The position numbers and the translations under genes are program-made. The notes under the pieces were generated by a model that did not search any database, was not told the DNA's origin, and worked only from the letters and a program-made list of their open reading frames with translations. Below, piece by piece: positions 3,205-14,010 of a DNA stretch of 64,000 bases (its first letter is position 1; each line of letters starts with the position of its first letter). Source of the stretch: Escherichia coli (GTDB lineage: Bacteria; Pseudomonadota; Gammaproteobacteria; Enterobacterales; Enterobacteriaceae); NCBI RefSeq assembly GCF_013122565.1, contig NZ_CP053258.1; one strand, given 5' to 3'.

Positions 3205-4404
3205 TCAAATCTGTCGTAACTGCGTCTCAACATACAAATAGCCAATTCCCAGCACCTGTTGTGCGCGGCTTAATTGCCCGAAGCCAATTTGCGTCGCTTT
3301 CACGCTCGGTCCTTCGTCGCGGTCGAACGGGTTAAATCCTGTCTGGCGAATAATGGTATTAAGCCAGTGCTCACCAAAGGCACAACTGCGACCGTACAAC
3401 CAAATCTGATTAATATTGAGGATGTTGAGGAAGTTATACAGACTCAAACCAATGGCATTGGCACTGCGGTCAACCCAGCTGGTGATCCACGGTTCTCCAC
3501 TCTGCCAGGCAGCGATTAACTGCGCGGTTGTCAGTTTTTCAGGATCAAGTTGAGTATTAACCGGTTGTGATTTTAGCCATACCCGCGCCTGTTTTTTTAA
3601 TGCACTTAACGAGGCGACGGTTTCCAGGCAGCCGTAACGTCCACAGTCGCAGACGACGCCATCCGTATTAACGATGGTGTGACCAATCTGTCCGCTACCA
3701 TACAAACTGCCGCGATAAATTTGCTCGTTAATCACGAACGACGAGCCAATGCCGTAATCAACGTTGATCACGCAGAAATCCCGTTCCTGCGAATTATTTT
3801 GCCATTTTTCCGCCAGCGCCAGCATCACGCAGTCATTATCGACCATCACCCGAATGCCCAGCTTCTCTTCCAGCAGATATTTCACCTCAACCGGCGTTGT
3901 CCACGGCGCTTGCGGCATGGTTTGCGACACTCCAGTCACTGGATCAACCTGACCGTGGATTGCCAGCGCCAGATTGATGGTGCGGTCCGGCCACAATTTA
4001 CGGTGGCGATGCCAGCATTTTTCGATTTCGGACAGCAGCGCCTGCGGCGTCGGTGCATCAATCTGTAAATACTCAAATTCACCTTTCGGACTTAAACAAG
4101 CATTAGCAACCTGACACTCAATACTGGTGGGCGTCACGTTCAGGCACAGCGTCCAGTCACCTTCCGGCGCAATCAGCCATGTACCGCTACTATGCCCGCG
4201 CGTCTGGCTTTCATCGTCGATATTCACCACCCGTTTTTCGCTTTCCAGTTCCTGCAAAATATTACTGACTGCCGGAATCGAAATTTGCGCCAGCCGGGCC
4301 AGCGTTGATTTATTGGCGCGCTTTTGCCGGTACAGCAGTTCCAGAATCACGCATTTGTTATGGTGGCGAATCTGTTGATTGTTAATGCAGGCTCTCATCT
4401 TCAC
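3205..4404 (-). CDS. yphH: ROK-family transcriptional regulator (NagC/Mlc-like)
   Basis: ORF translation has an N-terminal HTH region and the ROK zinc motif CDCGRYGCLE; position and sequence match K-12 yphH as I recall it. Start could be the second ATG at 4398. Confidence 0.85.
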   Translation of the reverse strand: MKMRACINNQQIRHHNKCVILELLYRQKRANKSTLARLAQISIPAVSNILQELESEKRVVNIDDESQTRGHSSGTWLIAPEGDWTLCLNVTPTSIECQVANACLSPKGEFEYLQIDAPTPQALLSEIEKCWHRHRKLWPDRTINLALAIHGQVDPVTGVSQTMPQAPWTTPVEVKYLLEEKLGIRVMVDNDCVMLALAEKWQNNSQERDFCVINVDYGIGSSFVINEQIYRGSLYGSGQIGHTIVNTDGVVCDCGRYGCLETVASLSALKKQARVWLKSQPVNTQLDPEKLTTAQLIAAWQSGEPWITSWVDRSANAIGLSLYNFLNILNINQIWLYGRSCAFGEHWLNTIIRQTGFNPFDRDEGPSVKATQIGFGQLSRAQQVLGIGYLYVETQLRQI

Positions 4405-4515
4405 TAAACCTTGTTTAGTTAATTGCGTGATTATTCCGCGAAAACATTGCCAGATTGTTCAATACACTGCCACAAATCTTTTAATTCAGTATGTCTTGTT
4501 AATATTGAGGGCACC

Positions 4516-7500
4516 ATGACTCCAGTAAAAGTGTGGCAAGAGCGCGTTGAGATCCCGACCTATGAAACCGGGCCGCAGGATATACATCCCATGTTCCTCG
4601 AAAATCGCGTTTATCAGGGATCGTCCGGCGCGGTTTATCCCTACGGCGTGACCGATACGCTGAGCGAGCAGAAAACCCTGAAATCCTGGCAGGCGGTGTG
4701 GCTGGAAAACGACTACATCAAAGTGATGATCCTGCCGGAATTGGGCGGTCGGGTGCATCGAGCATGGGATAAAGTGAAACAGCGCGATTTTGTCTATCAC
4801 AATGAAGTCATTAAACCTGCGCTGGTGGGGCTGCTGGGACCGTGGATCTCCGGCGGGATTGAGTTTAACTGGCCGCAACACCATCGCCCGACCACCTTTA
4901 TGCCCGTTGATTTCACCCTCGAAGCCCATGAAGACGGCGCACAGACGGTGTGGGTAGGCGAAACGGAGCCGATGCATGGTTTACAGGTGATGACAGGTTT
5001 CACCCTGCGCCCTGACCGGGCGGCGCTGGAAATCGCCAGCCGCGTCTATAACGGCAACGCCACGCCGCGTCATTTCTTGTGGTGGGCCAACCCGGCAGTG
5101 AAAGGGGGGGAAGGGCATCAGAGCGTCTTCCCGCCGGATGTAACGGCGGTGTTTGATCACGGCAAACGGGCCGTCTCCGCTTTCCCTATCGCCACCGGCA
5201 CTTACTACAAAGTGGACTACTCCGCTGGAGTGGACATTTCTCGCTATAAAAATGTGCCTGTTCCAACCTCATATATGGCCGAAAAATCGCAGTACGATTT
5301 TGTCGGCGCGTGGTGTCACGATGAAGATGGCGGTTTGCTGCACGTTGCCAACCACCATATTGCGCCAGGTAAAAAACAGTGGAGTTGGGGACACAGTGAA
5401 TTTGGCCAGGCGTGGGATAAGAGCCTAACTGATAATAACGGCCCGTATATCGAACTGATGACCGGTATTTTTGCCGATAACCAGCCCGATTTTACCTGGC
5501 TTGATGCTTACGAAGAGAAGCGTTTTGAGCAGTATTTCCTGCCTTATCATTCTTTGGGCATGGTGCAAAATGCCTCCCGCGATGCGGTGATAAAACTCCA
5601 GCGTAGTGAGCGGGGGATTGAGTGGGGGCTGTATGCCATCTCTCCGTTGAACGGATACCGCCTGGCGATCCGCGAAATCGGCAAATGCAACGCGTTACTT
5701 GATGATGCCGTGGCACTGATGCCTGCGACCGCCATCCAGGGCGTGTTGCACGGTATCAATCCTGAAAGGCTGACCATTGAGCTCTCTGATGCCGACGGCA
5801 ATATTGTACTGAGTTATCAGGAACATCAGCCGCAAGAGTTGCCGTTGCCGGACGTCGCCAAAGCGCCACTGGCAGCACAAGACATTACCAGTACAGATGA
5901 AGCCTGGTTTATCGGTCAGCATCTGGAGCAATATCATCACGCGAGCCGTTCACCGTTCGATTACTACCTGCGCGGCGTGGCGCTGGATCCGCTGGATTAC
6001 CGCTGTAACCTGGCGCTGGCGATGCTGGAGTATAACCGCGCAGATTTCCCGCAAGCGGTGGCGTATGCCACTCAGGCTCTGAAACGCGCACATGCGCTGA
6101 ACAAAAATCCGCAGTGCGGACAGGCGAGTTTGATTCGCGCCAGTGCTTACGAACGTCAGGGACAATATCAACAAGCCGAAGAGGATTTCTGGCGTGCGGT
6201 CTGGAGCGGCAACAGTAAAGCCGGAGGCTATTATGGTCTGGCACGACTGGCGGCGCGTAATGGTAACTTCGACGCGGGTCTGGATTTTTGCCAACAAAGT
6301 CTTCGCGCCTGCCCAACCAATCAGGAAGTGCTTTGCCTGCATAATCTGCTGCTGGTGTTAAGTGGTCGTCAGGACAACGCGCGTTTGCAGCGCGAGAAAC
6401 TGCTGCGCGATTATCCGCTGAACGCCACTCTGTGGTGGCTGAACTGGTTCGATGGTCGTAGCGAATCAGCTCTCGCGCAGTGGCGCGGTCTGTGTCAGGG
6501 ACGCGACGTTAACGCCCTGATGACCGCCGGGCAACTGATTAACTGGGGAATGCCCACCCTGGCGGCAGAGATGCTGAACGCACTGGACTGCCAGCGCACG
6601 CTGCCGCTTTACCTGCAAGCCAGCTTGCTGCCGAAAGCCGAACGTGGCGAACTGGTCGCAAAAGCCATTGATGTCTTCCCGCAGTTTGTCCGTTTCCCGA
6701 ATACGCTGGAAGAAGTGGCGGCGCTGGAGAGTATTGAAGAGTGCTGGTTTGCTCGCCATTTACTGGCCTGCTTCTACTACAACAAACGTAGCTACAACAA
6801 AGCCATTGCCTTATGGCAACGTTGCGAAGAGATGTCGCCGGAGTTTGCCGACGGCTGGCGCGGGTTAGCGATCCATGCGTGGAATAAGCAACACGATTAT
6901 GAGCTGGCCGCGCGTTATCTTGATAATGCTTATCAGCTTGCGCCGCAGGATGCACGTCTGCTTTTCGAACGGGATTTGCTTGATAAGTTAAGTGGAGCCA
7001 CACCGGAGAAACGACTGGCGCGTCTGGAAAATAATCTGGAAATTGCGCTGAAACGCGACGACATGACCGCAGAACTGCTCAATTTGTGGCATCTCACGGG
7101 GCAGGCAGACAAAGCGGCGGACATTCTCGCCACGCGCAAATTCCACCCGTGGGAAGGCGGGGAAGGGAAGGTCACCAGTCAGTTTATCCTCAACCAGTTA
7201 TTACGCGCCTGGCAGCATCTTGATGCCAGACAGCCGCAGCAGGCCAGCGAACTGCTTCATGCCGCGCTGCATTATCCGGAGAATTTAAGCGAAGGCCGTT
7301 TACCGGGGCAAACTGATAACGACATCTGGTTCTGGCAGGCGATATGCGCCAACGCGCAGGGCGATGAAACTGAAGCGACGCGTTGTTTACGTCTGGCGGC
7401 GACTGGCGATCGCACCATTAACATTCACAGTTATTACAACGATCAGCCGGTTGATTATCTCTTCTGGCAAGGAATGGCGCTGCGACTGCTGGGCGAACAA

Positions 7501-7797
7501 CAAATCGCACAGCAACTGTTTAGTGAAATGAAACAGTGGGCGCAAGAGATGGCGAAAACCAGTATCGAAGCGGATTTCTTTGCCGTCTCGCAACCTGACT
7601 TGTTGTCGCTGTATGGCGATTTACAACAGCAGCATAAAGAAAAATGCCTGATGGTGGCGATGCTGGCGTCCGCGGGACTCGGGGAGGTTGCGCAATATGA
7701 GTCTGCTCGCGCTGAATTGACGGCGATTAATCCGGCCTGGCCGAAAGCGGCATTATTCACCACTGTGATGCCTTTTATTTTTAACTACGTTCACTAA
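4516..7797 (+). CDS. yphG: Large TPR-repeat protein of unknown function
   Basis: 1124-aa ORF (track start is TTG at 4423); first ATG at 4516 with nearby GAGGG; C-terminal two-thirds is rich in TPR-like helical repeats; divergent from yphH. Confidence 0.8.
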   Translation: MTPVKVWQERVEIPTYETGPQDIHPMFLENRVYQGSSGAVYPYGVTDTLSEQKTLKSWQAVWLENDYIKVMILPELGGRVHRAWDKVKQRDFVYHNEVIKPALVGLLGPWISGGIEFNWPQHHRPTTFMPVDFTLEAHEDGAQTVWVGETEPMHGLQVMTGFTLRPDRAALEIASRVYNGNATPRHFLWWANPAVKGGEGHQSVFPPDVTAVFDHGKRAVSAFPIATGTYYKVDYSAGVDISRYKNVPVPTSYMAEKSQYDFVGAWCHDEDGGLLHVANHHIAPGKKQWSWGHSEFGQAWDKSLTDNNGPYIELMTGIFADNQPDFTWLDAYEEKRFEQYFLPYHSLGMVQNASRDAVIKLQRSERGIEWGLYAISPLNGYRLAIREIGKCNALLDDAVALMPATAIQGVLHGINPERLTIELSDADGNIVLSYQEHQPQELPLPDVAKAPLAAQDITSTDEAWFIGQHLEQYHHASRSPFDYYLRGVALDPLDYRCNLALAMLEYNRADFPQAVAYATQALKRAHALNKNPQCGQASLIRASAYERQGQYQQAEEDFWRAVWSGNSKAGGYYGLARLAARNGNFDAGLDFCQQSLRACPTNQEVLCLHNLLLVLSGRQDNARLQREKLLRDYPLNATLWWLNWFDGRSESALAQWRGLCQGRDVNALMTAGQLINWGMPTLAAEMLNALDCQRTLPLYLQASLLPKAERGELVAKAIDVFPQFVRFPNTLEEVAALESIEECWFARHLLACFYYNKRSYNKAIALWQRCEEMSPEFADGWRGLAIHAWNKQHDYELAARYLDNAYQLAPQDARLLFERDLLDKLSGATPEKRLARLENNLEIALKRDDMTAELLNLWHLTGQADKAADILATRKFHPWEGGEGKVTSQFILNQLLRAWQHLDARQPQQASELLHAALHYPENLSEGRLPGQTDNDIWFWQAICANAQGDETEATRCLRLAATGDRTINIHSYYNDQPVDYLFWQGMALRLLGEQQIAQQLFSEMKQWAQEMAKTSIEADFFAVSQPDLLSLYGDLQQQHKEKCLMVAMLASAGLGEVAQYESARAELTAINPAWPKAALFTTVMPFIFNYVH

Positions 7798-7893
7798 ACC
7801 CTATTAACTGTAATATTTGAGCGGCACGCGCTGCCGCTCATCACAAAATAATTAGAATAAGCCGTTGTTAATAAAAACCCTACAGGAGGCTCT

Positions 7894-8877
7894 ATGCCTA
7901 AAAAAATGAGAACAACCCGTAATCTATTATTAATGGCTACGCTATTAGGTAGCGCTTTATTTGCCAGGGCTGCGGATAAAGAAATGACCATTGGCGCAAT
8001 ATACCTTGATACTCAGGGATATTACGCTGGAGTGCGTCAGGGCGTTCAGGATGCGGCAAAAGATTCTTCAGTACAGGTACAGTTAATTGAAACTAACGCC
8101 CAGGGTGATATTTCGAAAGAAAGTACCTTTGTTGATACCCTCGTGGCGCGTAATGTCGATGCTATTATTTTATCGGCAGTGTCTGAAAATGGCAGTAGCC
8201 GTACCGTTCGTCGCGCCAGTGAAGCGGGTATTCCGGTGATTTGCTACAACACCTGTATTAATCAAAAGGGTGTCGATAAATATGTCTCGGCATATCTGGT
8301 GGGTGACCCGCTGGAATTTGGTAAAAAACTGGGTAACGCTGCCGCCGATTATTTTATTGCCAACAAAATTGACCAGCCGAAAATTGCCGTCATCAATTGC
8401 GAAGCCTTTGAAGTTTGTGTGCAACGACGTAAAGGGTTTGAAGAAGTATTAAAAGCCCGCGTTCCCGGCGCGCAAATTGTCGCTAATCAGGAAGGGACTG
8501 TTTTAGATAAAGCGATTTCCGTTGGTGAAAAACTAATTATCTCTACGCCGGATCTCAACGCCATTATGGGAGAATCGGGCGGTGCGACACTCGGCGCGGT
8601 AAAAGCGGTACGTAATCAAAATCAGGCAGGAAAAATTGCCGTTTTCGGTTCGGATATGACAACCGAAATTGCTCAGGAGCTGGAAAACAATCAGGTGCTG
8701 AAAGCGGTAGTGGATATTTCCGGTAAGAAAATGGGCAATGCTGTTTTCGCGCAAACATTGAAGGTTATCAATAAACAAGCCGACGGTGAAAAAGTGATTC
8801 AGGTGCCAATCGATCTCTATACCAAAACGGAAGACGGTAAACAGTGGCTGGCAACGCACGTTGATGGTCTGCCCTAA
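7894..8877 (+). CDS. yphF: Periplasmic sugar-binding protein of ABC transporter
   Basis: Signal peptide MPKKMRTTRNLLLMATLLGSALFARAADKE, periplasmic binding protein fold type I-like sequence; AGGAGG Shine-Dalgarno at 7885-7890. Confidence 0.88.
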   Translation: MPKKMRTTRNLLLMATLLGSALFARAADKEMTIGAIYLDTQGYYAGVRQGVQDAAKDSSVQVQLIETNAQGDISKESTFVDTLVARNVDAIILSAVSENGSSRTVRRASEAGIPVICYNTCINQKGVDKYVSAYLVGDPLEFGKKLGNAAADYFIANKIDQPKIAVINCEAFEVCVQRRKGFEEVLKARVPGAQIVANQEGTVLDKAISVGEKLIISTPDLNAIMGESGGATLGAVKAVRNQNQAGKIAVFGSDMTTEIAQELENNQVLKAVVDISGKKMGNAVFAQTLKVINKQADGEKVIQVPIDLYTKTEDGKQWLATHVDGLP

Positions 8878-8899
8878 TCGCTGATTCGCAGAGGTCCCT

Positions 8900-10411
8900 A
8901 TGTTCACGGCAACAGAGGCAGTCCCGGTAGCAAAAGTGGTGGCAGGAAATAAGCGTTATCCCGGCGTCGTTGCGTTGGATAACGTTAACTTCACGCTCAA
9001 TAAAGGCGAGGTTCGTGCGCTGTTAGGCAAAAACGGCGCGGGCAAATCGACCCTCATTCGAATGCTTACCGGTAGCGAACGTCCGGATAGCGGTGATATC
9101 TGGATTGGCGAGACGCGACTGGAAGGCGACGAAGCTACGCTGACTCGCCGTGCCGCTGAACTGGGGGTTCGTGCGGTTTATCAGGAGTTAAGTCTGGTGG
9201 AAGGGCTGACGGTGGCGGAAAACCTCTGCCTCGGTCAGTGGCCCCGCCACAACGGCATGATTGATTACCTGCAAATGGCGCAGGATGCCCAACGTTGCTT
9301 ACAGGCGCTGGGCGTTGACGTTAGTCCTGAACAACTTGTTTCAACACTAAGCCCGGCGCATAAGCAGCTGGTGGAAATTGCGCGGGTGATGAAGGGCGAG
9401 CCGCGCGTGGTCATTCTTGATGAACCTACCAGTTCGCTTGCGAGTGCGGAAGTTGAACTGGTGATCAGCGCGGTGAAAAAGATGTCGGCACTGGGCGTGG
9501 CGGTGATTTATGTCAGCCACCGGATGGAAGAAATTCGCCGCATTGCCTCCTGTGCCACCGTTATGCGCGACGGGCAGGTGGCTGGCGATGTGATGCTCGA
9601 AAACACTTCCACGCATCATATTGTGTCGCTAATGCTAGGGCGCGATCACGTTGATATTGCGCCGGTTGCACCTCAGGAAATTGTGGATCAGGCCGTGCTG
9701 GAAGTCCGTGCGTTACGCCATAAGCCCAAGCTGGAGGATATCAGTTTTACGCTACGTCGTGGCGAAGTGCTCGGCATTGCTGGTCTGCTGGGGGCAGGGC
9801 GCAGTGAATTGCTAAAGGCGATAGTTGGGCTGGAGACATATGAACAGGGCGAAATTGTTATCAACGGCGAGAAAATCACTCGCCCCGATTACGGCGACAT
9901 GCTGAAACGCGGCATTGGCTATACGCCAGAAAACCGCAAAGAAGCGGGGATCATTCCCTGGTTGGGCGTTGACGAAAATACAGTGCTGACCAATCGGCAA
10001 AAAATCAGCGCCAACGGTGTGCTGCAATGGTCCACCATCCGCCGCCTGACCGAAGAGGTGATGCAGCGGATGACGGTCAAGGCCGCCAGTAGTGAAACGC
10101 CCATCGGTACGCTTTCTGGCGGCAATCAGCAAAAAGTGGTGATCGGTCGTTGGGTCTATGCCGCCAGCCAGATTTTGTTGCTCGACGAGCCAACGCGCGG
10201 CGTCGATATCGAAGCCAAACAGCAGATTTACCGTATTGTCCGTGAGCTGGCTGCCGAAGGAAAAAGCGTGGTGTTTATCTCCAGTGAAGTGGAGGAGTTG
10301 CCGCTGGTGTGTGACCGCATCCTGTTATTACAGCACGGCACGTTCTCGCAGGAGTTTCACGCTCCGGTCAATGTGGATGAGCTGATGTCCGCCATTCTGT
10401 CTGTGCACTGA
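8900..10411 (+). CDS. yphE: Sugar ABC transporter ATP-binding protein with two ATPase domains
   Basis: Two Walker A motifs (GKNGAGKST and GLLGAGRSE) and two LSGG signature regions in 503 aa. Confidence 0.9.
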   Translation: MFTATEAVPVAKVVAGNKRYPGVVALDNVNFTLNKGEVRALLGKNGAGKSTLIRMLTGSERPDSGDIWIGETRLEGDEATLTRRAAELGVRAVYQELSLVEGLTVAENLCLGQWPRHNGMIDYLQMAQDAQRCLQALGVDVSPEQLVSTLSPAHKQLVEIARVMKGEPRVVILDEPTSSLASAEVELVISAVKKMSALGVAVIYVSHRMEEIRRIASCATVMRDGQVAGDVMLENTSTHHIVSLMLGRDHVDIAPVAPQEIVDQAVLEVRALRHKPKLEDISFTLRRGEVLGIAGLLGAGRSELLKAIVGLETYEQGEIVINGEKITRPDYGDMLKRGIGYTPENRKEAGIIPWLGVDENTVLTNRQKISANGVLQWSTIRRLTEEVMQRMTVKAASSETPIGTLSGGNQQKVVIGRWVYAASQILLLDEPTRGVDIEAKQQIYRIVRELAAEGKSVVFISSEVEELPLVCDRILLLQHGTFSQEFHAPVNVDELMSAILSVH

Positions 10412-10434
10412 TGAATTTTACCGAGGAACCTAAG

Positions 10435-11433
10435 ATGTCTGCTTCGTCATTACCATTGCCGCAGGGCAAGAGCGTCTCGCTCAAACTATTTGTCAGTCGC
10501 CATATTAATGAGATCGGTTTGCTGGTGGTGATTGCCATTCTTTATCTGGTCTTCTCCCTGAACGCGCCTGGCTTTATCTCATTGAATAACCAGATGAACG
10601 TGCTGCGCGATGCCGCCACCATTGGGATTGCCGCCTGGGCGATGACGCTGATTATTATCTCCGGTGAAATTGATGTCAGCGTTGGGCCGATGGTGGCTTT
10701 TGTCTCGGTGTGCCTGGCATTTTTGCTGCAATTTGAAGTTCCGCTGGCGGTGGCGTGTCTGCTGGTGTTGCTGTTAGGCGCGCTGATGGGAACGCTGGCC
10801 GGGGTGCTGCGCGGCGTGTTTAACGTACCAAGTTTCGTTGCCACACTGGGGCTGTGGAGCGCCCTGCGCGGAATGGGGCTGTTTATGACCAACGCACTGC
10901 CAGTGCCGATTGACGAAAACGAGGTGCTGGACTGGCTGGGCGGACAATTTCTCGGTGTGCCGGTATCCGCGCTGATCATGATGGTGCTGTTTGCGCTGTT
11001 TGTGTTCATTAGCCGAAAAACCGCCTTCGGGCGCTCGGTTTTTGCCGTTGGCGGTAATGCCACGGCGGCGCAGTTGTGCGGTATTAACGTTCGTCGGGTA
11101 CGCATTCTTATCTTTACCCTTTCGGGATTATTAGCGGCGGTGACCGGCATTTTGTTGGCGGCGCGCCTCGGTTCTGGTAACGCAGGTGCCGCAAACGGTC
11201 TGGAGTTTGACGTCATCGCCGCGGTCGTGGTCGGCGGTACGGCACTTTCCGGTGGTCGCGGCTCGTTGTTCGGTACGCTGCTTGGCGTACTGGTGATTAC
11301 GCTAATCGGTAACGGTCTGGTGCTGCTCGGGATTAACTCCTTTTTCCAGCAGGTGGTGCGCGGCGTCATCATCGTGGTGGCGGTGCTGGCGAATATCTTG
11401 CTGACCCAGCGTAGCAGTAAAGCGAAACGCTAA
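10435..11433 (+). CDS. yphD: ABC transporter permease
   Basis: Multi-pass hydrophobic protein; chosen start ATG at 10435 follows GAGGAA; an alternative ATG at 10411 overlaps the yphE stop (TGATG). Confidence 0.85.
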   Translation: MSASSLPLPQGKSVSLKLFVSRHINEIGLLVVIAILYLVFSLNAPGFISLNNQMNVLRDAATIGIAAWAMTLIIISGEIDVSVGPMVAFVSVCLAFLLQFEVPLAVACLLVLLLGALMGTLAGVLRGVFNVPSFVATLGLWSALRGMGLFMTNALPVPIDENEVLDWLGGQFLGVPVSALIMMVLFALFVFISRKTAFGRSVFAVGGNATAAQLCGINVRRVRILIFTLSGLLAAVTGILLAARLGSGNAGAANGLEFDVIAAVVVGGTALSGGRGSLFGTLLGVLVITLIGNGLVLLGINSFFQQVVRGVIIVVAVLANILLTQRSSKAKR

Positions 11434-11498
11434 ACCTTAACGCCCCTGGCGCGGGTGCGGCAGGGATGAAAATTAATCGTATTGTTAATGAGGGATTT

Positions 11499-12560
11499 AT
11501 GAAAACGATGCTGGCAGCTTATTTACCAGGAAATTCGACCGTCGATCTGCGGGAAGTTGCGGTGCCGACGCCGGGGATTAACCAGGTACTGATCAAAATG
11601 AAATCCTCCGGGATTTGCGGAAGCGATGTCCACTATATCTACCATCAACACCGCGCCACGGCGGCGGCGCCCGATAAACCGTTATACCAGGGCTTTATCA
11701 ACGGTCATGAGCCGTGCGGGCAAATTGTGGCGATGGGGCAAGGCTGCCGCCATTTTAAAGAGGGCGACCGCGTGCTGGTGTATCACATTTCTGGCTGTGG
11801 TTTTTGCCCGAACTGCCGTCGCGGTTTTCCTATATCTTGTACTGGCGAAGGAAAAGCGGCTTACGGCTGGCAGCGTGACGGCGGTCATGCCGAATATCTG
11901 CTGGCGGAAGAAAAAGATCTGATCCTCCTGCCGGATGCGCTGAGCTACGAAGATGGTGCGTTTATCAGTTGCGGCGTTGGCACGGCCTATGAAGGGATTT
12001 TACGCGGCGAAGTTTCCGGCAGCGATAACGTGCTGGTGGTCGGTCTGGGGCCGGTCGGCATGATGGCGATGATGCTGGCGAAAGGTCGCGGTGCAAAACG
12101 GATCATCGGCGTTGATATGCTGCCGGAACGTCTGGCGATGGCAAAACAGTTAGGGGTGATGGATCACGGTTATTTAGCGACCACCGAAGGTCTGCCGCAG
12201 ATAATTGCTGAACTTACCCACGGTGGCGCGGATGTTGCGCTCGATTGTTCCGGTAATGCCGCAGGTCGCTTGCTGGCACTGCAATCCACTGCTGACTGGG
12301 GGCGGGTGGTTTACATTGGTGAAACCGGAAAAGTGGAATTCGAGGTCAGCGCCGATCTGATGCACCATCAACGGCGGATTATTGGCTCCTGGGTGACCAG
12401 TCTGTTCCATATGGAAAAATGCGCCCACGATTTGACTGACTGGAAGCTGTGGCCGCGTAACGCCATTACCCATCGCTTCTCGCTGGAACAGGCAGGTGAT
12501 GCCTATGCGCTGATGGCGAGCGGCAAATGCGGGAAAGTTGTGATTAACTTCCCGGATTAA
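11499..12560 (+). CDS. yphC: Zinc-dependent alcohol/polyol dehydrogenase (MDR family)
   Basis: GHEPCGQIV and CGFCPNCRRG zinc-ligand motifs, GLGPVG Rossmann motif; start at internal ATG 11499. Confidence 0.85.
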   Translation: MKTMLAAYLPGNSTVDLREVAVPTPGINQVLIKMKSSGICGSDVHYIYHQHRATAAAPDKPLYQGFINGHEPCGQIVAMGQGCRHFKEGDRVLVYHISGCGFCPNCRRGFPISCTGEGKAAYGWQRDGGHAEYLLAEEKDLILLPDALSYEDGAFISCGVGTAYEGILRGEVSGSDNVLVVGLGPVGMMAMMLAKGRGAKRIIGVDMLPERLAMAKQLGVMDHGYLATTEGLPQIIAELTHGGADVALDCSGNAAGRLLALQSTADWGRVVYIGETGKVEFEVSADLMHHQRRIIGSWVTSLFHMEKCAHDLTDWKLWPRNAITHRFSLEQAGDAYALMASGKCGKVVINFPD

Positions 12561-12571
12561 GGAGTTAGCGG

Positions 12572-13444
12572 ATGACCATCTATACCTTATCCCACGGGTC
12601 GCTAAAGCTGGGCGTTTCTGACCAGGGCGGCGTAATCGAAGGCTTCTGGCGCGATACGACGCCGCTCTTACGTCCTGGTAAAAAAAACGGTGTGGCAACC
12701 GATGCCTCCTGTTTTCCGCTGGTGCCGTTTGCAAACCGGGTGAGCGGTAACCGTTTTGTCTGGCAGGGGCGTGAGTATCAACTGCAACCGAATGTTGAAT
12801 GGGATGCGCACTATCTGCACGGCGATGGCTGGCTGGTCGAGTGGCAATGTGTCTCGCACAGCGATGATAGTTTGTGTCTGGTGTATGAACATCGCAGCGG
12901 TGTCTATCACTATCGGGTAAGTCAGGCGTTTCATTTAACGGCGGATACGCTGACGGTGACGCTCTCTGTCACCAATCAAGGGGCAGAGACGCTGCCATTT
13001 GGTACCGGCTGGCATCCTTATTTTCCGTTGTCGCCGCAAACGCGGATTCAGGCACAGGCGAGCGGTTACTGGCTGGAGCGGGAGCAGTGGCTGGCGGGTG
13101 AGTTTTGCGAGCAGCTACCGCAAGAATTGGATTTTAACCAGCTCGCGCCGTTGCCGCGCCAGTGGGTGAACAATGGTTTTGCCGGATGGAATGGTCAGGC
13201 CCGCATCGAGCAGCCGCAGGAGGGTTATGCCATCATCATAGAAACGACGCCATCTGCACCGTGTTATTTCATCTTTGTTTCCGACCCGGCGTTTGATAAA
13301 GGATATGCGTTTGATTTCTTCTGTCTGGAGCCGATGAGCCATGCGCCGGATGACCATCATCGCCCGGAAGGGGGGGACCTCATTGCGCTTGCGCCGGGGG
13401 AATCAACAACCTCAGAGATGTCGTTGCGGGTAGAGTGGCTGTAA
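12572..13444 (+). CDS. yphB: Aldose 1-epimerase (mutarotase) family protein
   Basis: 290-aa ORF in yph cluster, length and position matching K-12 yphB; family assignment from recollection. Confidence 0.8.
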   Translation: MTIYTLSHGSLKLGVSDQGGVIEGFWRDTTPLLRPGKKNGVATDASCFPLVPFANRVSGNRFVWQGREYQLQPNVEWDAHYLHGDGWLVEWQCVSHSDDSLCLVYEHRSGVYHYRVSQAFHLTADTLTVTLSVTNQGAETLPFGTGWHPYFPLSPQTRIQAQASGYWLEREQWLAGEFCEQLPQELDFNQLAPLPRQWVNNGFAGWNGQARIEQPQEGYAIIIETTPSAPCYFIFVSDPAFDKGYAFDFFCLEPMSHAPDDHHRPEGGDLIALAPGESTTSEMSLRVEWL

Positions 13445-13491: not shown

Positions 13492-13914
13492 CTAACGGCG
13501 ATCGAGAGAAATTGCCCCCGGCCCGGTAATTGCCAATAGCAAGAACGCGCCAGCGATACTGACATTCTTCCAGAAATTAATCATATTTGGCCCGACGGCA
13601 TCGCCGGTCATATCCCAGTAATGGTGACCAATCACCGCCGTACCCAGCGTGTAGAAAATAAACAGTACCGCCAGCGGACGGGTGAAAAAGCCAAGCACGA
13701 TTAATATCGCGGCGGGCACTTCCATAACTACCGCAATAATCGCTGCCAGCATCGGCATCGGTGCGCCCAGCGAGGCCATATATTGGACCGTACCGTCAAA
13801 GCCCATCATTTTGGGAAAACCAAAAATAATGAAAATTAGGACCACGGCGATACGGGCAATTAATAACAAAACGGGGCGGGCAGCACCAAAATCAAAATAA
13901 CGTAGTGAGTTCAT
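13492..13914 (-). CDS. yphA: DoxX-family inner membrane protein
   Basis: Hydrophobic 140-aa protein [25 protein letters not shown]...; start at internal ATG (cat at 13912-13914). Confidence 0.8.
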
Positions 13915-14010
13915 AACCAATCCCTTTGCAAGATAATGTGATTTAAACGTAATACACACTCTGGTACCTCGCCACGCCCCAAGCGTTGAGATATTCGCTA
14001 ATTATCCTGG

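What the first reader, a model, noticed from the sequence alone, without database searches (positions are those of the whole stretch)
3205..13444. yph cluster: regulator, giant TPR protein, sugar ABC transporter, dehydrogenase and mutarotase-like enzyme with no known substrate
A ROK-family repressor (yphH) is divergent from a seven-gene same-strand cluster. This comprises a ~1,100-aa TPR-rich protein with a non-TPR N-terminal ~400 aa (yphG), a periplasmic binding protein, a fused double-ATPase and a permease (yphFED), a Zn-dependent polyol dehydrogenase (yphC) and an aldose-epimerase-family protein (yphB). The layout implies uptake and oxidation of an unidentified sugar or polyol, and the large TPR protein is unusual in such a locus. 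As far as I know these remain y-genes of unassigned function.
Basis: partly seen in the sequence, partly recalled or inferred. Interest (0 to 1): 0.45.

Follow-up and report, generated by a model that had tools for sequence, protein, structure and literature searches.

The report
E. coli yph sugar-utilisation cluster
This is the real, conserved but still unassigned yph gene cluster of E. coli; comparison with other bacteria suggests it takes up and oxidises a galactose-like sugar, and that its giant TPR protein is the conserved core of a widespread, uncharacterised enzyme family rather than an oddity.

Summary
yphH (ROK regulator) is divergent from yphG-F-E-D-C-B, which is six same-strand genes, not seven. 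The cluster is in 5425 of 5426 complete E. coli genomes, is under strong purifying selection (dN/dS 0.00-0.10), and is still named "putative" in K-12 RefSeq. No paper searched assigns a substrate.

New here:
- **Two modules.** The locus combines two portable modules. Module B (yphFEDCB) recurs without yphG or yphH in Acidisoma, Vibrio and another proteobacterium. There it carries a GntR/FCD regulator, and in two of three loci a dehydratase that passes the NCBIfam galactonate-dehydratase cutoff. YphC is therefore more likely an aldose 1-dehydrogenase paired with the mutarotase YphB than a polyol dehydrogenase.
- **YphG is the core.** Module A (regulator, YphG, sugar transporter, mutarotase) occurs across Gammaproteobacteria, Bacteroidota and Bacillota. 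In 42 of 68 non-gamma loci a galactosidase-family gene lies within 10 kb.
- **Candidate operators.** A 21-bp palindrome occurs twice, at the yphH start and at the yphG/yphF junction.

The substrate (D-galactose-configured sugar) and YphG's chemistry are inferences.

The parts
3205..4404 (-). yphH: ROK-family regulator with an N-terminal winged-helix region
   Evidence: Pfam ROK E 3e-32 and a weak MarR-type HTH match at residues 18-55. ROK zinc motif CDCGRYGCLE at 252-261. Far below the NagC and Mlc equivalog cutoffs. dN/dS 0.05-0.10.
4402..4422 (.). Candidate operator O1: CACTAAAC-CTT-GTTTAGTTAA, a 7-3-7 inverted repeat centred at 4411 that overlaps the yphH GTG start
   Evidence: Conserved at the start of the ROK gene in Aeromonas, Serratia, Hafnia, Citrobacter, Budvicia and Enterobacter loci. 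Scores 18.0 bits with a PWM built only from non-Escherichia sites.
4422..4468 (+). Conserved spacer blocks: ATTGCGTGA (4422-4430) and a -10-like TACACT (4463-4468) upstream of yphG
   Evidence: Both blocks are conserved across gammaproteobacterial ROK/YphG spacers. Their promoter role is inferred. The consensus sigma-70 scan found nothing in the spacer.
4516..5820 (+). yphG N-terminal beta domain (residues 1-435): divergent aldose-1-epimerase fold containing Pfam DUF5107
5893..7797 (+). yphG C-terminal TPR superhelix (residues ~460-1092)
7792..7812 (.). Candidate operator O2: CACTAAACCCTATTAACTGTA, overlapping the yphG stop codon and upstream of yphF
   Evidence: 27.1 bits with the PWM trained only on non-Escherichia sites. 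It is the top hit in the 64-kb window and exceeds all 200 shuffles, whose highest maximum was 26.6. Conserved in E. albertii and weaker in Budvicia diplopodorum.
7818..7840 (+). Conserved 9-bp-stem hairpin UGAGCGGCA-N5-UGCCGCUCA in the yphG-yphF spacer, with no U-tract
   Evidence: RNA fold of 7785-7900 gives -25.3 kcal/mol, z = -2.4. The stem is conserved in E. albertii, Enterobacter BIGb0383 and RIT691 while the loop varies.
7894..8877 (+). yphF: periplasmic CUT2-type sugar-binding protein with a signal peptide
   Evidence: Peripla_BP_4. No NCBIfam equivalog reached. 52-53% identical to the binding proteins of the Acidisoma, Vibrio and L091 modules. Signal peptide visible.
8900..10411 (+). 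yphE: fused double ABC ATPase
   Evidence: Two ABC_tran stretches. AraG, XylG and AlsA are the best matches but all below cutoff. 53-54% identical to module B orthologues.
10435..11433 (+). yphD: BPD_transp_2 permease
   Evidence: Pfam. 66-70% identical to module B orthologues. dN/dS 0.03.
11466..12560 (+). yphC: Zn-dependent MDR dehydrogenase, proposed aldose 1-dehydrogenase
   Evidence: ADH_N, ADH_zinc_N and Glu_dehyd_C. Putative Zn ligands C51/H81/E82, the C111/C114/C117/C125 motif and GLGPVG are read from the sequence. Orthologues are coupled to a mutarotase and a galactonate dehydratase. dN/dS 0.003.
12572..13444 (+). yphB: aldose 1-epimerase with an intact catalytic His/His/Glu
   Evidence: Pfam E 1e-54. 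The PDB entry 3NRE is this protein. The catalytic residues align with GalM H104, H175 and E309.

Best explanation
The locus is a composite catabolic island for one galacto-configured aldose. D-galactose is the most likely substrate. D-fucose, L-arabinose or a small galactoside are not excluded.

**Module B (yphFEDCB).** YphF binds the sugar in the periplasm and YphED imports it. YphB interconverts the anomers. YphC oxidises C1 with NAD(P)+ to the aldonolactone and then the aldonate. In E. coli the product would enter the separately encoded dgoRKADT (De Ley-Doudoroff) route.

**Module A (yphH-yphG).** This is the older core. YphG is a cytoplasmic enzyme whose catalytic domain is a remodelled aldose-1-epimerase fold. 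It keeps the catalytic Glu and one His, but the acid His aligns to Asn. The fold is held on a ~630-residue TPR superhelix. YphG acts on the same imported sugar, or a small glycoside of it, next to a canonical mutarotase.

**Regulation.** YphH represses the locus through two copies of a 21-bp palindrome, at its own start codon and at the yphG/yphF junction.

**Shown:** gene content, folds, module portability, neighbourhood statistics, motif copies and purifying selection.

**Inferred:** substrate identity, the C1-dehydrogenase activity of YphC, any catalysis by YphG, YphH binding to the motif, and the link to dgo.
For: 1. **Module B is portable.** YphC orthologues of 61-75% identity in Acidisoma (L089), Vibrio nigripulchritudo (L090) and GCA_007474635 (L091) sit in the order binding protein, ATPase, permease, dehydrogenase, mutarotase. 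Every protein is orthologous to YphF/E/D/C/B at 41-75% identity, and YphG and ROK are absent. The dehydrogenase and mutarotase genes overlap by 1-4 bases in all three.
2. **Link to galactonate.** The adjacent MR_MLE dehydratase passes the NCBIfam equivalog cutoff for galactonate dehydratase (577 and 339 bits; cutoff 311). The Vibrio protein is 53% identical over its full length to E. coli DgoD. The regulators are GntR/FCD, and the Vibrio one is 32% identical to DgoR.
3. **dgo is present.** E. coli K-12 carries dgoRKADT.
4. **Independent convergence on galactose.** Among 68 Bacteroidota and Bacillota YphG loci, 42 have a galactosidase-family gene within 10 kb: a GH2-like protein closest to the exo-beta-1,4-galactosidase BT4151, or GH35, GH36 or GH97. 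In addition, 35 have a sugar-porter MFS, 50 an AraC regulator and 11 a mutarotase-type gene (8 GalM-type, 3 DUF4432-type).
5. **Core of module A in Gammaproteobacteria.** The minimal cluster is ROK, YphG, MFS (XylE-like) and YphB.
6. **The fusion recurs.** A distant MAG (L092) has AraC, YphG-like (36% identity) and YphFEDCB-like genes (YphC 67%, YphB 46%), so the combination is not unique to E. coli.
8. **YphB is intact.** It keeps His/His/Glu.
9. **Motif copies.**
10. **Selection.** dN/dS 0.00-0.10.
Against: - No experiment or paper links yph to galactose.
- YphC's nearest sequence relatives in PDB and NCBIfam are threonine, xylitol, sorbitol and scyllo-inosose dehydrogenases, not known aldose 1-dehydrogenases.
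- Only two of four loci with close YphC orthologues carry the dehydratase, and no lactonase was identified.
- E. coli already has Mgl, GalP and the Leloir pathway for galactose, so a second route needs a rationale.
- Galactonate-dehydratase-type enzymes and galactose dehydrogenases are known (own knowledge) to accept stereochemically related sugars such as L-arabinose and D-fucose.
- MFS-type clusters have YphG and YphB without any dehydrogenase, so YphG's reaction is not explained by the oxidative route.
- The HHalign match between the YphG domain and GalM is only 84% probability, so the His-to-Asn call is provisional.
- The galactosidase association is neighbourhood statistics from my own ORF calling and clustering, not curated annotation.
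- O1 overlaps the yphH ribosome-binding site and start codon, which could explain part of its conservation.
Confidence: 0.42

Rival explanations
1. One reading: YphFED imports a polyol, or a sugar that is reduced. YphC is a sorbitol/xylitol-type polyol 2-dehydrogenase that makes a ketose. YphB and YphG then handle the product.
For: YphC's best PDB and NCBIfam relatives include xylitol, sorbitol and L-iditol dehydrogenases, Tdh and IolM. Ruminococcaceae loci L050 and L063 place a YphC-like gene near another MDR dehydrogenase and a mannitol-dehydrogenase-family gene downstream of YphG.
Against: All those matches are far below equivalog cutoffs, at about 30% identity. In every close orthologous context the dehydrogenase is followed by a canonical aldose mutarotase, overlapping it in three loci. 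A mutarotase has no role for a polyol substrate. Two contexts add a galactonate dehydratase, which needs an aldonate, not a ketose. No kinase for a ketose is present in the cluster.
Confidence: 0.2
2. YphG is not an enzyme. It is a sugar-sensing scaffold: the mutarotase-like domain binds the sugar, and the TPR superhelix binds a partner (YphH, the transporter or another protein) to control expression or transport. This would resemble the control of the ROK repressor Mlc by sequestration.
For: The residue aligned to the mutarotase catalytic-acid His is Asn192. TPR solenoids are typically protein-interaction modules, and the fold hits are OGT, Ski3 and APC subunits. Four invariant residues lie in the TPR part. 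Mlc, a ROK paralogue, is regulated by protein-protein contact (own knowledge).
Against: The partner regulator changes between lineages (ROK or AraC, the latter with its own AraC_binding ligand domain) and so does the transporter (MFS, GPH or ABC), yet YphG stays about 40% identical over its full length. The N-terminal domain has a dense set of invariant His, Glu, Asp, Asn, Lys and Trp residues typical of an active site. More distant relatives of about 35% identity have signal peptides, and one of them sits in a polysaccharide-utilisation locus. One family member of 38% identity (P0266) carries a C-terminal CBM9-like domain. These features fit carbohydrate-active enzymes.
Confidence: 0.15
3. 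YphG is a glycosidase (or lyase or phosphorylase) of a new family. It cleaves a small imported galactoside, such as galactosylglycerol, methyl-galactoside or galactobiose. YphB or GalM then mutarotates the released sugar, and in E. coli YphC oxidises it.
Against: CUT2 ABC systems and XylE-like sugar porters mostly carry monosaccharides. In Bacteroidota the neighbouring GH2-like and GH35 enzymes have signal peptides and should already release monosaccharide in the periplasm. No known GH or PL family matches YphG. The module B binding proteins, which work without YphG, are 52% identical to YphF, which argues for a monosaccharide ligand.
Confidence: 0.2

Closest known systems
Galactose mutarotase / aldose 1-epimerase (GalM; Pfam Aldose_epim)
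   Different: In YphG the residue aligned to the catalytic-acid His is an invariant Asn (N192). The domain is about 435 residues instead of about 300. It is fused to about 630 residues of TPR, and it is encoded beside a canonical mutarotase. It is probably not a simple mutarotase.
BDI_1685 of Parabacteroides distasonis (PDB 5CD6, structural-genomics 'TPR-domain containing protein')
   Different: It is 580 residues long and 21% identical, with only the first part of the TPR region. No function has been published for it, so it gives a fold but no activity.
De Ley-Doudoroff (oxidative) D-galactose pathway and the E. coli dgoRKADT operon
   Same: Orthologous YphFEDCB modules sit next to DgoD-type galactonate dehydratase and GntR/FCD regulators. 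A mutarotase plus an aldose 1-dehydrogenase is the standard entry to such routes.
   Different: The E. coli yph locus has no dehydratase, kinase, aldolase or lactonase, and dgo lies elsewhere. YphC belongs to the MDR Zn family. By my recollection, described bacterial galactose dehydrogenases belong to other families. No activity has been measured.
CUT2 monosaccharide ABC importers (Rbs, Mgl, Ara, Als, Ytf)
   Same: The architecture is the same: a Peripla_BP_4 binding protein, one fused double ATPase and a BPD_transp_2 permease.
   Different: No equivalog cutoff is reached. The best matches are AlsB, MglB and RbsB at 52-64 bits against cutoffs of 335-420. There is a single permease gene.
NagC/Mlc ROK repressors
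   Same: YphH has an N-terminal HTH, a ROK domain and the zinc motif. It is divergently transcribed from its presumed target, and two candidate palindromic sites are present, as for NagC, which uses paired operators (PMC4288165).
   Different: YphH forms its own small, long-branched group and lacks the conserved linker GR motif (PMC4288165). Its candidate operator (ACTAAAC-N3-GTTTAGT) differs from what I recall of NagC/Mlc sites, though I did not compare them directly. The two sites lie 3.4 kb apart.
TPR-plus-catalytic-domain proteins such as O-GlcNAc transferase and SPINDLY
   Same: They have a long TPR superhelix fused to a carbohydrate-related domain, and their TPR parts are among the best fold matches to YphG's.
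   Different: The domain order is reversed: the catalytic domain is N-terminal in YphG. The catalytic fold is unrelated. There is no evidence that YphG acts on proteins.

Membership tests
ROK-family transcriptional repressor (YphH) | ROK domain with the CxCGxxGCxE zinc motif | tested here: met
   Pfam ROK E 3e-32. CDCGRYGCLE at residues 252-261.
ROK-family transcriptional repressor (YphH) | N-terminal DNA-binding winged helix | tested here: inconclusive
   The MarR-type match at residues 18-55 scores 21 bits, below the 24.6 cutoff. PMC4288165 treats YphH as a ROK repressor.
ROK-family transcriptional repressor (YphH) | Binds a palindromic operator at its target promoter and is released by a sugar effector | not testable with these tools
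   Two copies of a candidate 21-bp palindrome were found. Binding is untested.
NagC or Mlc equivalog | NCBIfam equivalog score | tested here: not met
   110 and 107 bits against cutoffs of 650 and 530.
CUT2 sugar ABC importer (YphFED) | Peripla_BP_4 binding protein with signal peptide, fused double ATPase and BPD_transp_2 permease | tested here: met
   Signal peptide MPKKMRTTRNLLLMATLLGSALFARA.
CUT2 sugar ABC importer (YphFED) | Assigned substrate through an equivalog model | tested here: not met
   No equivalog cutoff is reached for F, E or D.
Aldose 1-epimerase (YphB) | Aldose_epim fold and the catalytic His/His/Glu | tested here: met
   Pfam E 1e-54. PDB 3NRE. His, His and Glu align with GalM H104, H175 and E309.
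Aldose 1-epimerase (YphG N-terminal domain) | Galactose-mutarotase fold | tested here: met
Aldose 1-epimerase (YphG N-terminal domain) | Catalytic base Glu and catalytic acid His (GalM E309 and H175) | tested here: not met
   E313 aligns with E309 and H122 with H104, but H175 aligns with the invariant N192 (HHalign probability 84%). YphG is therefore not filed as a mutarotase.
TPR superhelix (YphG C-terminal part) | Tandem TPR helix pairs | tested here: met
   Pfam TPR_16, TPR_14, TPR_2 and TPR_1. Consensus-TPR proteins match at E 3e-29. The model is helical from residue 460 to 1092.
MDR Zn-dependent dehydrogenase (YphC) | ADH_N/ADH_zinc_N domains, catalytic and structural Zn ligands, and the Rossmann GxGxxG | tested here: met
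   C51, H81 and E82 are read from the sequence, and the CxxCxxCx7C motif at C111-C125 and GLGPVG at 193 were found by pattern search.
Aldose 1-dehydrogenase (proposed for YphC) | Oxidises the anomeric carbon of an aldose to the lactone | not testable with these tools
   Context only: coupling to a mutarotase gene and adjacency to a galactonate dehydratase. Pfam Glu_dehyd_C E 2.6e-10.
   The best NCBIfam hits, Tdh and IolM, score about 170 bits against cutoffs of 380-450. PDB xylitol and sorbitol dehydrogenases match only at E 1e-29 to 1e-36.
De Ley-Doudoroff galactose pathway | Galactonate dehydratase, KDGal kinase and KDPGal aldolase available to receive the product | tested here: met
   dgoD, dgoK, dgoA, dgoT and dgoR are annotated in K-12. 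They are not in the yph locus, and a functional link is untested.
Known glycoside hydrolase or polysaccharide lyase family (YphG) | Match to a described catalytic-domain family | tested here: not met

The most novel reading that the evidence does not exclude
YphG founds a new, very widespread family of cytoplasmic carbohydrate enzymes: 3,931 clusters at 50% identity, in Proteobacteria, Bacteroidota and Bacillota, with secreted relatives. In this family a remodelled mutarotase active site, scaffolded by a TPR superhelix, carries out a reaction on galactose-type sugars that no known family performs. Candidates are a ring-form or positional isomerisation, or cleavage of a small galactoside. Together with YphFEDCB it would give E. 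coli a hidden oxidative (De Ley-Doudoroff) entry for galactose that feeds the dgo operon.
Probability: 0.25. Interest if true: 0.7.

Novelty: new variant of a known kind. Interest (0 to 1): 0.5.

Why it matters
- **A core unknown in E. coli.** yph is one of the few multi-gene catabolic loci present in essentially every E. coli genome that still has no substrate.
- **A cheap, testable lead.** The analysis gives a concrete prediction: a galacto-configured aldose, with C1 oxidation feeding dgo. Enzyme, binding and growth assays can check it quickly.
- **An uncharacterised family.** DUF5107-TPR proteins emerge as a conserved partner of sugar transporters and galactosidases in gut, rumen, soil and marine polysaccharide degraders.
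- **Wider consequences.** Assigning YphG's reaction would annotate thousands of genes. It might also add a step to textbook galactoside catabolism in Bacteroidota and Lachnospiraceae.

Tried and rejected
- **Literature.** Searches on every yph gene name, DUF5107, DUF4432, BDI_1685 and 5CD6 found no functional assignment. yphG appears only as a Klebsiella PCR marker. YphF appears only as one of several sugar-transport proteins raised on levoglucosan relative to fructose. DUF5107 appears once, as a marker of phagotrophic stramenopiles.
- **CRP site in the yphH-yphG spacer.** CGTGA-N6-CGCGA matches TGTGA-N6-TCACA at only 5 of 10 positions by hand, so this was dropped.
- **Promoter scan.** The sigma-70 consensus scan found nothing in either spacer.
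- **Terminator after yphG.** The hairpin at 7818-7840 has no U-tract. The only terminator-like hit near the 3' end (7749-7772) lies inside the coding sequence. This is inconclusive.
- **YphG as a GH15/GH65/GH94-like sandwich plus (alpha/alpha)6 barrel.** Rejected, because the fold hits to the C-terminal part are TPR solenoids.
- **YphG as a periplasmic protein.** Rejected for the ~40% identity orthologues fetched from genomes, which have no signal peptide. More distant relatives of about 35% identity do have one.
- **Decaying, cryptic locus.** Rejected by dN/dS 0.00-0.10, although some strains carry frameshifted or truncated yphG.
- **My first degenerate pattern for the operator.** It was mis-spaced and found nothing. 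It was replaced by a PWM trained on other genera.
- **afdb50 fold search.** Not available.
- **More distant YphC homologues.** Those at 56-58% identity sit in unrelated contexts, a TRAP transporter and a PL8 polysaccharide-utilisation locus. They were not used for inference.

Full report
**Observation.** The window region 3205-13444 is the E. coli yph locus.
- ORFs lie at the stated coordinates.
- The 10.2-kb stretch matches 5425 of 5426 complete E. coli genomes, always on the chromosome. In 5370 of them the match covers at least 80%.
- RefSeq annotates yphH, G, F, E, D, C and B, flanked by glyA and by yphA/hcaD.
- No NCBIfam equivalog cutoff is reached for any of the seven proteins.
- One correction: six genes, not seven, lie on the strand opposite yphH. 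yphA (DoxX) is convergent.
- All seven genes are under strong purifying selection against K-12 and E. albertii. dN/dS is 0.03-0.10, and 0.003 or lower for yphC. The locus is maintained, not decaying, although the best-matching strain has a frameshifted yphG.

**State of knowledge.**
- K-12 RefSeq still names every product "putative ..." or "DUF5107 domain-containing protein YphG".
- Papers call YphH the third, uncharacterised ROK repressor of E. coli, on a long branch of its own (PMC4288165). It is still listed as of unknown function in 2022 (PMC9308461).
- YphF was one of several sugar-transport proteins raised on levoglucosan relative to fructose (PMC8753852).
- yphG is otherwise mentioned only as a Klebsiella PCR marker.
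- A single paper in the library contains "DUF5107".

**YphG.**
- The family is large. A search with the N-terminal 480 residues against 1.84 billion representatives found 3,931 clusters at E <= 0.001. Most of the 150 best matches listed are about 1,100 residues long.
- A 50-sequence alignment shows a dense set of invariant or near-invariant residues in the N-terminal domain: E116, N118, H122, H123, R124, N179, N192, D208, H215, D240, K286, K287, D306, E313, N322, Q323 and D325, plus several Trp and Tyr.
- Four invariant residues lie in the helical part: Y483, W563, R782 and E880.
- The AlphaFold model is confident, with pLDDT 94.2 and pTM 0.92. It has a beta domain at 1-435 and helices at 460-1092.
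- The C-terminal part matches TPR superhelices such as OGT, SPINDLY and Ski3.
- A profile-profile alignment to GalM-type enzymes maps H122 to GalM H104 and E313 to the catalytic base E309. The catalytic acid H175 aligns with the invariant N192 (probability 84%).
- YphB and the other mutarotases encoded next to YphG homologues keep all three residues.
- I therefore do not file YphG as a mutarotase. It looks like a remodelled member of that fold.

**Genomic context of YphG.**
- *Gammaproteobacteria.* In Aeromonas, Serratia, Pectobacterium, Hafnia, Budvicia aquatica and a Citrobacter, the cluster is a divergent ROK gene, then YphG, an XylE-like sugar-porter MFS and YphB. It has no ABC system and no dehydrogenase.
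- *Other phyla.* A scan of one genome per species returned 80 loci with full-length homologues, about 40% identical over roughly 1,050 residues, in Bacteroidota and Bacillota. None of these has a signal peptide. More distant relatives of about 35% identity do, and one of them sits in a polysaccharide-utilisation locus with a GH16 gene and sulfatases.
- *Method.* I called ORFs, clustered the neighbours and annotated cluster representatives.
- *Result for the 68 non-gamma loci* (counts are within 10 kb):

| Neighbour | Loci out of 68 |
|---|---|
| AraC regulator | 50 |
| Sugar-porter MFS | 35 (27 within two genes) |
| ~930-residue GH2-like protein (closest to exo-beta-1,4-galactosidase BT4151 and PDB 8U01) | 30 |
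| GH35 | 12 |
| GalM-type mutarotase | 8 |
| GH36 | 5 |
| GH97 | 3 |
| DUF4432-type mutarotase-like protein | 3 |
| Any galactosidase-family gene | 42 |

- In Bacteroidota the GH2-like and GH35 proteins have signal peptides. In Bacillota they do not.
- Some Lachnospiraceae loci carry a CUT2 ABC system and a GalM-type gene instead of the MFS.
- YphG is thus the constant element. The regulator type and transporter type vary around it.

**Context of YphC and the mosaic structure.**
- YphC homologues of 61-75% identity lie in Acidisoma cellulosilytica (L089), Vibrio nigripulchritudo (L090) and assembly GCA_007474635 (L091). All three loci carry a GntR/FCD regulator, binding protein, ATPase, permease, dehydrogenase and mutarotase. 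In L089 and L090 the order is regulator, transporter genes, dehydrogenase, mutarotase. In L091 the dehydrogenase-mutarotase pair precedes the regulator and the transporter genes. YphG and ROK are absent.
- Each protein is orthologous to the E. coli one: F 52-53%, E 53-54%, D 66-70%, C 61-75% and B 41-50%.
- The dehydrogenase and mutarotase genes overlap by 1-4 bases.
- In L089 and L090 an enolase-superfamily dehydratase lies beside the module. It passes the NCBIfam equivalog cutoff for galactonate dehydratase, scoring 339 and 577 bits against a cutoff of 311.
- The Vibrio protein is 53% identical end to end to E. coli DgoD, and the Acidisoma protein is 40% identical.
- The Vibrio regulator is 32% identical to DgoR.
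- A fourth context, MAG GCA_936418335 (L092), has an AraC regulator, a YphG-like gene (36% identity) and a YphFEDCB-like block (YphC 67%, YphB 46%). This is the E. coli arrangement with a different regulator.
- Homologues at 56-58% identity lie in unrelated contexts and were not used.
- The E. coli locus is therefore a fusion of module A (regulator, YphG, transporter, mutarotase) with module B (ABC importer, dehydrogenase, mutarotase). Module B occupies the position that the MFS gene holds in the MFS-type clusters.

**Interpretation.**
- A dehydrogenase gene followed by, and in three loci overlapping, a canonical aldose mutarotase gene and placed beside an aldonate dehydratase is the standard signature of an aldose 1-dehydrogenase at the head of an oxidative sugar route.
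- The dehydratase equivalog points to D-galactonate. The sugar would then be D-galactose or a sugar of the same configuration, such as D-fucose or L-arabinose.
- The galactosidase-rich neighbourhoods of YphG in other phyla are an independent line of evidence that points the same way.
- E. coli K-12 encodes dgoRKADT elsewhere, so galactonate made by YphC would have a route to pyruvate and glyceraldehyde 3-phosphate.
- These steps are inferred. YphC's nearest sequence relatives are threonine and polyol dehydrogenases at about 30% identity. No lactonase was seen, and no experiment exists.
- YphG's reaction is unknown. It works with a mutarotase but without a dehydrogenase in most genomes. It is cytoplasmic and follows a monosaccharide-type transporter.
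- I favour an enzyme acting on the imported galacto-sugar or a small galactoside.
Each is listed with its tests.

**Regulation.**
- The yphH-yphG spacers of gammaproteobacterial loci share a 21-bp imperfect palindrome. In the window it is CACTAAAC-CTT-GTTTAGTTAA at 4402-4422, overlapping the yphH GTG start.
- They also share an ATTGCGTGA block and a -10-like TAnACT.
- A weight matrix built only from non-Escherichia sites finds two outstanding hits in the 64-kb window. One is 7792-7812 at 27.1 bits, overlapping the yphG stop codon and upstream of yphF. The other is 4402-4422 at 18.0 bits. The next best hit scores 12.8.
- Across 200 shuffles the maximum score averaged 13.7 and never exceeded 26.6.
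- The second site is conserved in E. albertii and weaker in Budvicia diplopodorum. No second site reached the scan threshold in the MFS-type clusters.
- The same spacer holds a conserved 9-bp-stem hairpin without a U-tract.
- I read the two palindromes as candidate YphH operators. Binding is untested, and O1's overlap with the yphH ribosome-binding site may explain part of its conservation.
- Whether yphG and yphFEDCB form one transcript cannot be decided from sequence.

**Verdict.**
- The finding is real and correctly described as an unassigned locus.
- It is not a new kind of system. It is a sugar-utilisation island built from known parts plus one uncharacterised, very widespread protein family.
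- The value added here is a specific substrate and pathway hypothesis, the two-module anatomy, the recognition of YphG as the conserved core, and candidate operators.

Noticed in passing
window 4423-4515: The yphG ORF stays open upstream to a TTG at 4423, which gives 1124 aa. The N-termini of 86 homologues begin at the conserved ...VKVWxExVxIPTY... block, so the ATG at 4516 (1093 aa) is the likely start.
   Followed up: partly
L001 6312-9594 (NZ_AP042570) and proteins P0009, P0033, P0002, P0028, P0037: The closest genome (99.4% identity) has a frameshifted yphG. Truncated E. coli YphG forms of 900 and 692 aa head clusters of 1109 and 1402 member sequences, against 18305 for the full-length form. 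These could be lineage-specific inactivation or assembly fragments.
   Followed up: no
window 10412-10434: The yphE-yphD spacer is 1 nt shorter than in K-12 (23 nt against 24). yphD is also open from an ATG at 10411 that overlaps the yphE stop codon. The curated start corresponds to 10435.
   Followed up: partly
L006 (P0243) and proteins P0245-P0264, P0266, P0237: More distant DUF5107-TPR relatives of about 35% identity have signal peptides, and P0243 sits in a Bacteroidota polysaccharide-utilisation locus with a GH16 gene, sulfatases and beta-helix proteins. P0266 carries a C-terminal CBM9-like domain and P0237 an endonuclease/exonuclease/phosphatase domain.
   Followed up: partly
L021 6335-8563 and L061 (cluster c68): A 742-aa protein with no Pfam or NCBIfam match lies next to the MFS-YphG-GalM genes in Mucilaginibacter and Chitinophaga. 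It may be another uncharacterised carbohydrate-active protein.
   Followed up: no
L030, L039, L049, L054, L071, L072, L076: Marine Flavobacteriia share a fixed gene order, MFS, GDSL esterase, GH2-like, YphG, usually flanked by sulfatases. This suggests a sulfated and acetylated galactan as the source polymer.
   Followed up: no
L032, L042, L045: In Paenibacillus and Ruminiclostridium the gene next to YphG encodes a 332-aa DUF4432/Aldose_epim-like protein. In my alignment it has His, His and Glu at the mutarotase catalytic positions. It would be a third, unrelated-looking mutarotase partner for YphG.
   Followed up: partly
window 11466-12560: YphC is exceptionally constrained. It has no amino-acid change against K-12 at dS 0.12, and dN/dS is 0.003 against E. 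albertii. This is far lower than for its neighbours (0.03-0.10).
   Followed up: partly
PMC8163842, Table 1: A DUF5107 orthologue group is one of the markers of phagotrophic lifestyle among 30 stramenopile genomes, listed alongside digestive enzymes. The family therefore extends to eukaryotes.
   Followed up: no
window 13492-13959: yphA (DoxX family) is convergent with yphB. It gives a below-cutoff match (40.8 bits; cutoff 80) to the HvfX family of Cu-binding RiPP maturation proteins. It is conserved next to the cluster only in the closest Enterobacteriaceae and is probably unrelated to it.
   Followed up: no
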